From Podarcis vaucheri (lineage: Eukaryota): a stretch of DNA of 64,000 nt. The position numbers were made by a program, and so were the translations under genes. Below the pieces are notes generated by a model. The model worked only from the letters and a program-made list of their open reading frames with translations. It did no database searches and was not told the DNA's origin. Every line of letters starts with the position of its first letter. The first letter of the stretch is position 1. Where the stretch lies: the NCBI GenBank assembly GCA_965113315.1, contig OZ220364.1. One strand, 5' to 3'. Of this stretch, positions 21,901 to 24,900 are shown piece by piece.

Positions 21901-24900
21901 GGCACTGGGGGGGATGGGGAACAGACAGGCCAACTGTCTGCTGACTACAGCTGCTGCACACTACCAGTTGTGACAGAAAAAGTAACTTTCTATTAAATAA
22001 AAGTTTTATTAAAAAATGTGTTTTGGGCCCCATTGTTGCCTTTGAAAACCTATCCAGTTTTCGCTGCCTGCTCCAAAATAACTTGGTTTTCTTTTCCCAT
22101 TTTACCCACCCCCATCCCATCCCAATTCACCCCACAGATTATCAGCAAGAGCTTTGGAACTGTACTATTTATTCATAGCCACACACTATTCCTGTGATGA
22201 AGGCAAACTAGGATTGTCAAAGTTTAAACCTCTGGGGGGCCCCCACCCTTTAGCAGCAACTTGACCTATACCACTGCCAGATACATTCACCAGCTTGTGA
22301 CCTCTGCTTGCTGTTGCTAGCTAATTAAGAAAACTGTGTTCCACTATGAAGTGTAACTTAAGAACTGCAGTTCATTTTAGCTTAATTGCATCCCTTTGGC
22401 TGCACGCCATCTGTTGCTCTTCAGATGTGACAATATTACTCTTCATTTACCAGCTGAACGATGTAACCTGATCTGCTTGTGATAGTAGCTTCTGTTTATC
22501 AACATAGTCTCACTCCCACCAGCAGGGTCCACTGCCAAGGACACTGAGTAGTGAAGGGAGTGAATTTTTTCATTTAAGGTACTTGAAAGTTTTTTGACCT
22601 TGCCATCCTTTGAAGCTGTGGGCTGGTTCCAAAATGAATTCCAAAGCTCCCTGCCACATACATATGGGTGAGATCTACATGTTGTTACTGGTTTGCATGC
22701 TATATTTCTCCCAGGCGTGCAAATGACACAGTGACTCCTGTATCCAACAAAGGATAATACAGAAACCAATTTCTGATGAAATGTGTTTCAGAAATGAGAA
22801 GCACCAAAAATCTACAGCATCACTCTTGAAATTTAAACCCACTGAATTCCTGTCCATGTTTTAATACAGTTAGCGTAAACCGAGCTTTGTACCGGAAGAA
22901 GAGAGAAGAAATTGCAAACAAAATATTAGGGAAGAAATGTATCCCAGACTACAGTTGTTAACATCACAGGAAGAACAACAGAAAGTACTGGGTTAAAGAG
23001 ACACTTCCTGTTAAAAGGGTCAAAGCATGGTGATACCCTTTCTCTTGTAGAACATTGCTGCTACCGTACTATGTGGTTTTTTTGCTGTGTCTGTTTGGGC
23101 AAAGCATCTCAAGGCTGAATTTTCATACTGATTTTTTGATGAGTAGTTTTATTCATTGCCAGCTGTCATATGCTCCCATTTAGTGAGTTCTGAATATTTA
23201 CTGGGGTACTGAATGCTCCCCAGGATATAGTAACATCTCACTATGTAGGTGACATCTTCAGAAGAAATGATCACCACGCAAAGGTGACTGTCAAGAGTCA
23301 TGGTGATTTTACTGTGTGAATCTGGTTTGAGTCAATGAAACAACTCATGTATGCAATTCATTACTCAATAAGGCTCTTCGCTGATCCAAAAGTTATTAGG
23401 AAGACTGTTCCAGAACTTTATTCATCTCTGGCGGTTAAGTACCCCTTTCTCCCCCAATCTTTTGTATTGTTCTCTCAGACCCAAGGGAGCCTCTCTGCCT
23501 TATTTAAACCATCTTTTGTTTTTTCTTCCAGCAGCTGCAGGTGGTTCCTTTATTCGGCGATATGCAGATAGAGCTGGCCAGATACATTAAGACCAGTGCT
23601 CACTATGAGGAGAACAAATCCAAGTGAGTGCCTGCCATAATGTCTCTTGGCTTCGGTGTGTCCTGGTCAAGAGAGGAAGTTGCCAGACACTTGCAACTCT
23701 CCTGCTCTCGTGTGTGAGGTCTGTGCATGGGTGCCTGCAAGTGTGTGTGTGTGTGTGTCCATGTGATTGTGTTACTGAGTGTGACTCTGTAGTAGTGAGT
23801 TCTTCGAGGCCGGATGTGTGTGGATTCATCATTCCTCATCCTTTCCTTGCTGTACCTTGGGTGAAAACCCCAATCTTATGCAGAATTAGGTGTACCTAAA
23901 CCCATTGAAATAAATTGTTTGGTTATAGTCCAAGCTATTCTCATAAAGAGTTCTTGCTTTGGAACCTTATTTATCTTTCTCTGTTCTGTCTGTATTTTGA
24001 CTGAGCCAAGGCTGTGCCCCTTTAACAGCACAACCAAGGAGCAGTTTTTGGACTCAATAAACTCTGACTCTTATTAGAGTGACATCTGTATTCCCTGATA
24101 GTTCCCCCACATCTTGCAGATTTTGTCACTGACTACTTGCCTAGAGTTACTGCTTCCTGCTAGCTAGTGCTTCCTCCTTTCATCTGTTTCAGACACATGA
24201 TCTCACCCAAGCTAGTCTCAGAAGCACTGATGTGAGACAATCTAGGCAAGACCCATACTGCCCCCTGCATTCATTCCTGCCCTACCTTTTGATTGGATCC
24301 TTACTAGCTATGTCCCCGTACCTAATCTTACAAAGACTTTCTGGATTACCGTCAGAATGCTCATTAGTTAGACAGACGTGCCAGTACCTTATGTCAGTTT
24401 TCCTCATTCTGGTGCCCTCCAGATGTTGAATTACAATTCCCATTATCCCTGACCATTTTGCTGGTGCTTATGGGATTTATAGTCCAGACCATCTGGAAGG
24501 CATCAGGTTGAGGAAGGCTGCCATACTCATCTGTGTCTATGCTTATCTATGTACATGCTGTTCATAATTGTAAGCCTGAATAGGTATATCATGAGGATAC
24601 CTGTAGGTGACTGCAGGTATGAATGTGCATCAGATGTTGGTGGTTTGTGCTTAGAAAGGATATGAATGTATGAATGCCAGTATCTGAATGCATACAGGTG
24701 TGTTCGTACTTTTACAGACTGATAGATGTTCATGAGGATTGGAGCAAGTTTGATACTCATCAGTGTGTGTATATGGAGTGTGCTTATGTGATTGCAAGAA
24801 TGTGTGCATGTGTGACTGCATGTATTGTGAATATATTTGTGAATGCCAAGTTCAGTGTCTGTACTTACCTGTCTGCCACTTGTTCTGGTATGCTTTTATG

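What the first reader, a model, noticed from the sequence alone, without database searches (positions are those of the whole stretch)
23574..23669. K320E A-to-I recoding hairpin is intact in this lizard, with an A:C mismatch exactly at the edited base
Seen: exon 10 UGGCCAGAUACAUUAAGACCA (23575-23595) pairs with intronic UGGCUUCGGUGUGUCCUGGUCA (23648-23669) through Watson-Crick pairs, G:U pairs and one bulge. The first A of the Lys320 codon (A23589, 5' neighbour U) faces C23654, the mismatch geometry ADARs prefer. A second A:C mismatch (A23592 opposite C23651) sits at the first base of the Thr321 codon, so T321A would be a candidate secondary recoding event. Known: CYFIP2 K320E is an ADAR2-dependent neuronal recoding site in mammals. 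Inference: the same recoding occurs in squamate brain.
Basis: partly seen in the sequence, partly recalled or inferred. Interest (0 to 1): 0.7.

Follow-up and report, generated by a model that had tools for sequence, protein, structure and literature searches.

The report
Lizard CYFIP2 K320E editing hairpin
This lizard keeps the known spot where vertebrate brains chemically rewrite one letter of the CYFIP2 message, and it likely edits it too, but the fold shared with other animals uses the first 29 intron letters rather than the farther stretch proposed, which looks like a lineage-limited extra partner of untested effect.

Summary
A23589 is c.958, codon Lys320 of CYFIP2, 35 bases before the donor: the known K/E site, edited in human, mouse and chicken. 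It is not the conserved editing hairpin. A proximal fold A (23634-23652, intron +11 to +29) continues a stem over the splice donor, is predicted to form first, and matches the published ECS position (+10 to +20). A distant vertebrate locus keeps all 24 pairs of A plus the donor stem but only 12 of 19 B pairs; a mammalian primer differs only at A's unpaired or outside positions. In fold A the edited A pairs with U, so the headline A:C mismatch belongs to the non-conserved fold. T321A is unlikely: 5' G context, absent from the human recoding table, Thr in 75 of 75 proteins. No reads over the edited base were obtained, so editing in this lizard is inferred. The scan reported this hairpin before in another genome (e1-7801869). 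Verdict: ordinary new member of a known site; the open question is whether fold B tunes editing in lizards.

The parts
23532..23623 (+). CYFIP2 ninth coding exon (human exon 10), 92 nt
   Evidence: Spliced model identical to CYFIP2 of Phrynosoma, Myotis and Aotus over 366 of 366 residues; 91 of 92 bases identical in L003
23589..23589 (+). K/E editing site: c.958, first A of Lys320 codon, context U-A-A, position -35 from the donor; editing here is inferred
   Evidence: human c.A958G p.K320E; -35 in Licht 2016
23590..23590 (+). Second A of codon 320 (K320R site, about 1% in human); opposite A23637 in fold A, paired with U23653 in fold B: the base that would tell the folds apart
23592..23592 (+). 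First A of Thr321; A:C mismatch in both folds but G-A-C context; not a likely editing site
23596..23631 (+). Inner stem 23596-23604 : 23623-23631 (7 WC, 2 G:U) covering the splice donor CAA|GUGAGUGC
   Evidence: Probability 0.78-0.98 in every lizard window folded; 9 of 9 pairs in L003; same rows in the mouse drawing
23634..23652 (+). Proximal ECS (fold A), intron +11 to +29, pairs with 23576-23593: 14 WC, 1 G:U, 3 mismatches, 1 bulge; A23589-U23638
   Evidence: 23624-23652 identical in L003, 29 of 29; joint fold probability 0.98-1.00; published position; primer differences only at unpaired positions
23648..23669 (+).
23714..23737 (+). Second conserved intronic block (+91 to +114), starting with a donor-like GTGAGG; role unknown
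   Evidence: 22 of 24 identical to L003; best of 300 shuffles 18

Best explanation
This is the lizard copy of the CYFIP2 K320E site, where the exon is predicted to fold onto the first 29 bases of the next intron (fold A) so that ADAR2 likely converts A23589 to inosine in neurons and the Lys codon would be read as Glu. Steps: (1) shown: site, exon, donor and ADAR2 gene are present. (2) Predicted and conserved: as the intron emerges, 23596-23604 pairs over the donor and 23576-23593 pairs with 23634-23652, one long hairpin with A23589 paired to U23638, a 5' U-A pair and an A:A mismatch on its 3' side. (3) Inferred from mammals: the hairpin holds splicing back long enough for ADAR2 to act; slower splicing raises Cyfip2 editing, and loss of ADAR2 lowers Cyfip2 splicing. 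(4) Inferred: the E form favours axon branching and spines, as in cultured neurons. The distal complement (fold B) is most likely a lineage-limited look-alike of the ECS's 3' half that forms later and is not needed.
For: Site identity: c.958, codon 320, -35 (against 39, 51). Published ECS about +10 to +20. Mouse mfold drawing shows the donor stem and, as far as its PDF text can be read, fold A. L003: 24 of 24 pairs of A plus inner stem, 12 of 19 of B; joint fold A 0.98-1.00, B 0.00. Mammalian 20-nt primer: 4 differences; two at unpaired A positions (23637, 23648), two beyond A (23653, 23655); three break B pairs. Fold A has probability 0.97-0.98 in all 12 folds ending at 23650-23665. The CYFIP1 paralog has the same Lys but no fold (-10.9 against -27.5 kcal/mol). 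Chicken edits this site in brain. ADAR2 orthologue present. Splicing links.
Against: No lizard RNA evidence at A23589 was obtained. In this lizard fold B alone is more stable than fold A (-27.3 or -29.6 against -23.4 kcal/mol) and wins in some windows, e.g. 0.89 in 23570-23675. Fold A's duplex alone is only moderately unusual (47 of 2909 tiles). A's pairs are invariant between window and L003, so there is no compensatory change; the comparison is one distant locus plus one primer. Inosine or G at 23589 barely changes fold A's energy (-0.3 to -0.5 kcal/mol), so release of the donor by editing is not shown. A donor stem as strong is predicted for 1 of the 8 other donors tested. No stable stem like the mouse 3' inducer element was found downstream.
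Confidence: 0.75

Rival explanations
1. One reading: fold B is the editing-competent hairpin in this lizard, with an A:C mismatch at A23589.
For: B is the second best complement of the exon segment in the window, is more stable than A in isolation, dominates short windows (0.89-0.98) and would be stabilised by editing (-27.3 to -33.0 with a G proxy).
Against: Not conserved in L003 or the mammalian primer; not the published ECS position; the A:C register is 2.3 kcal/mol worse than the slipped one; the 5' U23588:G23655 wobble suppresses editing at UAN triplets, in 2 of 3 tested cases even at an A:C mismatch.
Confidence: 0.08
2. Two-state switch: fold A forms first and is edited; fold B, gained in this lineage, replaces it once +46 is transcribed and changes the level or position of editing (less K320E, more K320R or K320G).
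For: A and B are mutually exclusive and within about 0.2-3 kcal/mol across windows; A is 0.98 up to 23665 and B 0.96-0.98 at 23670. In B, A23590 sits in an AAG with a 3' U:G wobble, an enhancing geometry.
Against: B loses again when a few more bases are added (0.00-0.16 in 5 of 6 folds ending at 23690-23700). No evidence that B is conserved in any other lizard: the two intron contigs laid were shallow and their differences near this region were not placed.
Confidence: 0.1
3. The hairpin is kept in lizards for splice-site control only and A23589 is little edited.
For: The most robust element is the donor-covering stem; a second conserved block begins with a donor-like sequence whose use would bring a stop codon; no mouse-like inducer stem.
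Against: Editing is shown on both sides of the lizard branch (mammals, chicken) and the exon plus ECS is nearly identical in L003.
Confidence: 0.07

Closest known systems
CYFIP2 K/E (K320E, c.A958G) ADAR2 site with proximal intronic ECS (Licht 2016 PMC5291252; Daniel 2017 PMC5654063; Gabay 2022 PMC8897444)
   Same: Same gene, codon, base, distance to donor (-35), ECS position and, by the mouse drawing, the same donor-covering stem.
   Different: A instead of G opposite the second A of the codon (23637); an extra distal complement (fold B); no stable 3' inducer stem found where mouse has a 116-nt one; editing not measured here.
Chicken CYFIP2 K/E editing (Fresard 2015 PMC4449034)
   Same: Sauropsid orthologue edited mainly in brain, rising with age.
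   Different: That paper's passages give no structure; squamates were not found covered in the searches made.
Earlier scan note e1-7801869 (another genome)
   Same: A 75-letter K320E hairpin burying the exon 10 donor, the size of fold A plus inner stem.
   Different: It does not mention a distal complement.

Membership tests
CYFIP2 K/E editing site | Gene is CYFIP2, not CYFIP1 | tested here: met
   366 of 366 residues identical to three CYFIP2 entries; the paralog with NKSR lies on another contig
CYFIP2 K/E editing site | Genomic Lys codon with A at c.958, -35 from the donor | tested here: met
CYFIP2 K/E editing site | Intronic ECS about +10 to +20 able to pair across the site | tested here: met
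   Fold A, 23634-23652
CYFIP2 K/E editing site | ECS conserved between distant amniotes | tested here: met
   29 of 29 bases in L003; 16 of 20 to a mammalian primer; only these two comparisons
CYFIP2 K/E editing site | Compensatory base changes in the ECS helix | tested here: inconclusive
   All A pairs invariant; changes fall at unpaired positions only
CYFIP2 K/E editing site | A>G in brain RNA against genomic DNA | not testable with these tools
   No reads over the exon were obtained; all 24 runs listed were contigs; intron contigs only
CYFIP2 K/E editing site | ADAR2 gene with catalytic motif in the genome | tested here: met
   One exon matches human ADAR2 at E 6.8e-23 with CHAE intact; the whole gene was not assembled
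CYFIP2 K/E editing site | 3' editing inducer element about 138 nt downstream (mouse) | tested here: not met
   120-nt windows from 23660 to 23900 have z from -1.1 to +2.4; a short conserved block lies at that distance
   12 of 19 pairs in L003, 1 of 8 identity at 23662-23669; 3 pairs broken by the primer
Secondary T321A recoding site | ADAR-permissive context and detection in orthologues | tested here: not met
   5' G context; 0 hits for c.A961G or p.T321A in the human table; Thr in 75 of 75 proteins

The most novel reading that the evidence does not exclude
This lizard lineage has gained a second, downstream ECS that displaces the ancestral one during transcription, an RNA switch that retunes an ancient neuronal recoding event: it dampens K320E through a 5' G:U wobble and opens the neighbouring A, giving K320R or K320G forms of CYFIP2 that mammals barely make.
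Probability: 0.1. Interest if true: 0.55.

Novelty: new member of a known kind. Interest (0 to 1): 0.22.

Why it matters
As it stands it fills in a squamate branch of a site already shown in mammals and chicken, and it corrects which intron segment is the ECS. That matters for anyone building a reptile minigene or reading ADAR2 rules from the site: the natural substrate has an A-U pair, not an A:C mismatch. If fold B proved conserved and active in lizards, it would be a natural case of a new competing ECS changing a recoding output, testable with one amplicon.

Tried and rejected
RNA evidence: no reads over the exon were obtained. Intron 23618-23740 laid on 4 of 24 runs: X15 and X17 gave one shallow contig each (depth about 3, from 23635/23636; 2 and 4 differences, only C>G 23688 and C>T 23709 placed), X18 and X19 nothing; uninformative for editing or for A versus B. 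T321A rejected (context, human table, invariance). An outer helix 23537-23543: 23732-23738 looked strong in the joint fold with two one-sided changes but had probability 0 in 7 of 8 single-sequence folds: not claimed. Release of the donor by editing: energy change near zero: not shown. Mouse-like inducer stem: none found. Rfam on L003: two weak hits below gathering score. A first greedy exon build misplaced three exons and was redone. Literature searches for squamate CYFIP2 editing and T321A/K320R gave no relevant paper; Levanon 2005 was not held. Scan look-ups by place and sequence found nothing.

Full report
Gene and site. The window holds the coding exons of a CYFIP gene on the + strand from 12827 to about 62540. 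A spliced model of the first ten coding exons matches CYFIP2 of Phrynosoma, Myotis and Aotus at 366 of 366 residues and places A23589 at c.958, first base of codon 320 (Lys), in a 92-nt exon 23532-23623. That is the human site c.A958G p.K320E, 35 bases before the donor as in Licht 2016. The protein shows no internal difference from the one lizard entry compared (863 positions) and at least one from each of 13 other vertebrate entries, which fits a lizard. The genome's second copy of this exon, L002, ends in NKSR like CYFIP1.

The observation. As a duplex it is -20.9 kcal/mol; 0 of 2909 tiles are as good, and it ranks second in a 2-nt-step scan of the window. Where its lower stem forms, the A:C register is 2.4 kcal/mol above the MFE and 2.3 above a slipped register in which A23589 pairs with U23653.

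A second fold. The same exon bases pair with 23634-23652 (fold A: 14 Watson-Crick, 1 G:U, 3 mismatches, 1 bulge), directly below a 9-pair stem that covers the donor (23596-23604: 23623-23631). The donor stem has probability 0.78-0.98 in every lizard window folded. Fold A has 0.97-0.98 in the 12 folds ending at 23650-23665, before B is complete. With longer ends A and B trade places with the window (A 0.05-0.72, B 0.03-0.89 over six windows). In isolation B is the more stable. Thermodynamics alone does not decide.

Conservation decides for A. Licht 2016 (passages) puts the Cyfip2 ECS about 10 to 20 bases into the intron; A's core is +15 to +20, B is +25 to +46. The mouse drawing in Daniel 2017 (supplement 2, read as PDF text, not as an image) shows the donor stem and rows that follow fold A, with G where the lizard has A23637. 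A 20-nt mammalian intron primer from Licht 2016 matches 23637-23656 at 16 of 20. The differences are at 23637 and 23648, both unpaired in A, and at 23653 and 23655, outside A; three of them break B pairs. One scan of metagenome contigs gave one vertebrate locus, L003 (probably a distant sauropsid, inferred from its exon and unalignable intron). It is identical at 91 of 92 exon bases and 29 of 29 bases of 23624-23652, but at 1 of 8 of 23662-23669. It keeps 9 of 9 inner, 15 of 15 A and 12 of 19 B pairs; the joint fold gives A 0.98-1.00 and B 0.00. The CYFIP1 paralog has the same Lys but no such fold (-10.9 against -27.5 kcal/mol; 431 of 500 shuffles as good). Limits: two outside comparisons, no compensatory pair, and the pattern used could not match forms with G at 23637.

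ADAR geometry. In fold A the target is A-U paired with a 5' U-A pair. In mammals the next A faces G, a suppressing mismatch, and K320R is edited at about 1% against up to 80% for K320E. In fold B the 5' neighbour is a G:U wobble, which strongly suppresses editing at UAN triplets, in 2 of 3 cases even at an A:C mismatch (Reautschnig 2024, section read). A23592 has a 5' G, a context the same paper calls poorly editable. c.A961G and p.T321A have 0 hits in the human recoding table (Gabay 2022, supplement file 3; 32 of 55 CYFIP2 hits seen, showing only the two codon-320 sites; files 4 and 5 not searched). Thr321 is invariant in the 75 of 121 stored proteins that carry the motif.

Is it edited in lizards? 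Not shown. No reads over the exon were obtained, and the intron contigs of two runs say nothing about it. The inference rests on bracketing (human, mouse; chicken brain in Fresard 2015, passages), the conserved fold, and an ADAR2 exon with an intact CHAE motif in this genome. Searches found no paper on squamate CYFIP2 editing; Levanon 2005, which may show the structure and more species, was not held, and bioRxiv supplements were closed.

Mechanism. Shown: anatomy, conservation. Predicted: one long hairpin forming as the intron emerges and covering the donor. Inferred from mammals: weaker splicing raises Cyfip2 editing and ADAR2 loss lowers Cyfip2 splicing (Szabo 2024 as recalled author; PMC10984384, section 8), so editing and splicing are coupled. 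My folds do not show editing opening the hairpin, and 1 of 8 other donors has an equally strong predicted stem. The E form increases axon branching and spines in cultured neurons (bioRxiv 2025.03.04.641430, abstract and section 18).

Differences from the mammalian case: fold B; A rather than G at 23637; no stable stem like the 116-nt mouse inducer element, though a 24-nt block at that distance is conserved with L003 (22 of 24; 0 of 300 shuffles). Other papers seen as passages only: PMC3391646, PMC6101530, PMC4053846, PMC3575830 (which gives the distance to the donor as about 50 nt), PMC3594278, PMC12203800.

Verdict. The scan met this hairpin before in another genome; that note led me to Licht 2016, which I checked. 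What remains open is whether fold B is a lizard-specific tuner (probability about 0.1).

Noticed in passing
Proteins P0108, P0121: Both Xenopus CYFIP2 entries that carry the motif have Lys at 320, whereas bioRxiv 2025.03.04.641430 says X. tropicalis encodes Glu without editing. If the Glu record comes from a cDNA, frogs may edit this site, which would date the editing to early tetrapods.
   Followed up: partly
Proteins: Residue 320 is K in 42, E in 32 and T in 1 of 75 proteins. E is in all ray-finned fish CYFIP2 entries, sturgeon included, and also in Callorhinchus (2 entries), while two sharks and coelacanth have K: the edited residue may have been fixed in the genome more than once. No tree test was made.
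   Followed up: partly
window 23714-23737; L003 477-500: Conserved intronic block starting with a donor-like GTGAGG. Reading past the main donor meets AAG TGA at once, so its use would give a premature stop. Licht 2016 removed a cryptic splice site at +128 of the mammalian intron; homology not tested.
   Followed up: partly
window 23507-23530; L003 284-307: The polypyrimidine tract before the exon is also conserved, 22 of 24 bases.
   Followed up: no
window 23623: The last exon base is an A paired inside the donor stem. Editing it would give the consensus CAG|GU donor and change Lys331 to the CYFIP1 residue Arg; no such site is among the human CYFIP2 rows seen.
   Followed up: partly
window 23641-23652 and 23659-23669: The 3' halves of folds A and B resemble each other, as if B arose by a short local duplication or from the GT-rich run next to it.
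   Followed up: no
window 12843-13043: The donor of the first coding exon (12943) is also predicted to lie in one helix with probability 0.93.
   Followed up: no
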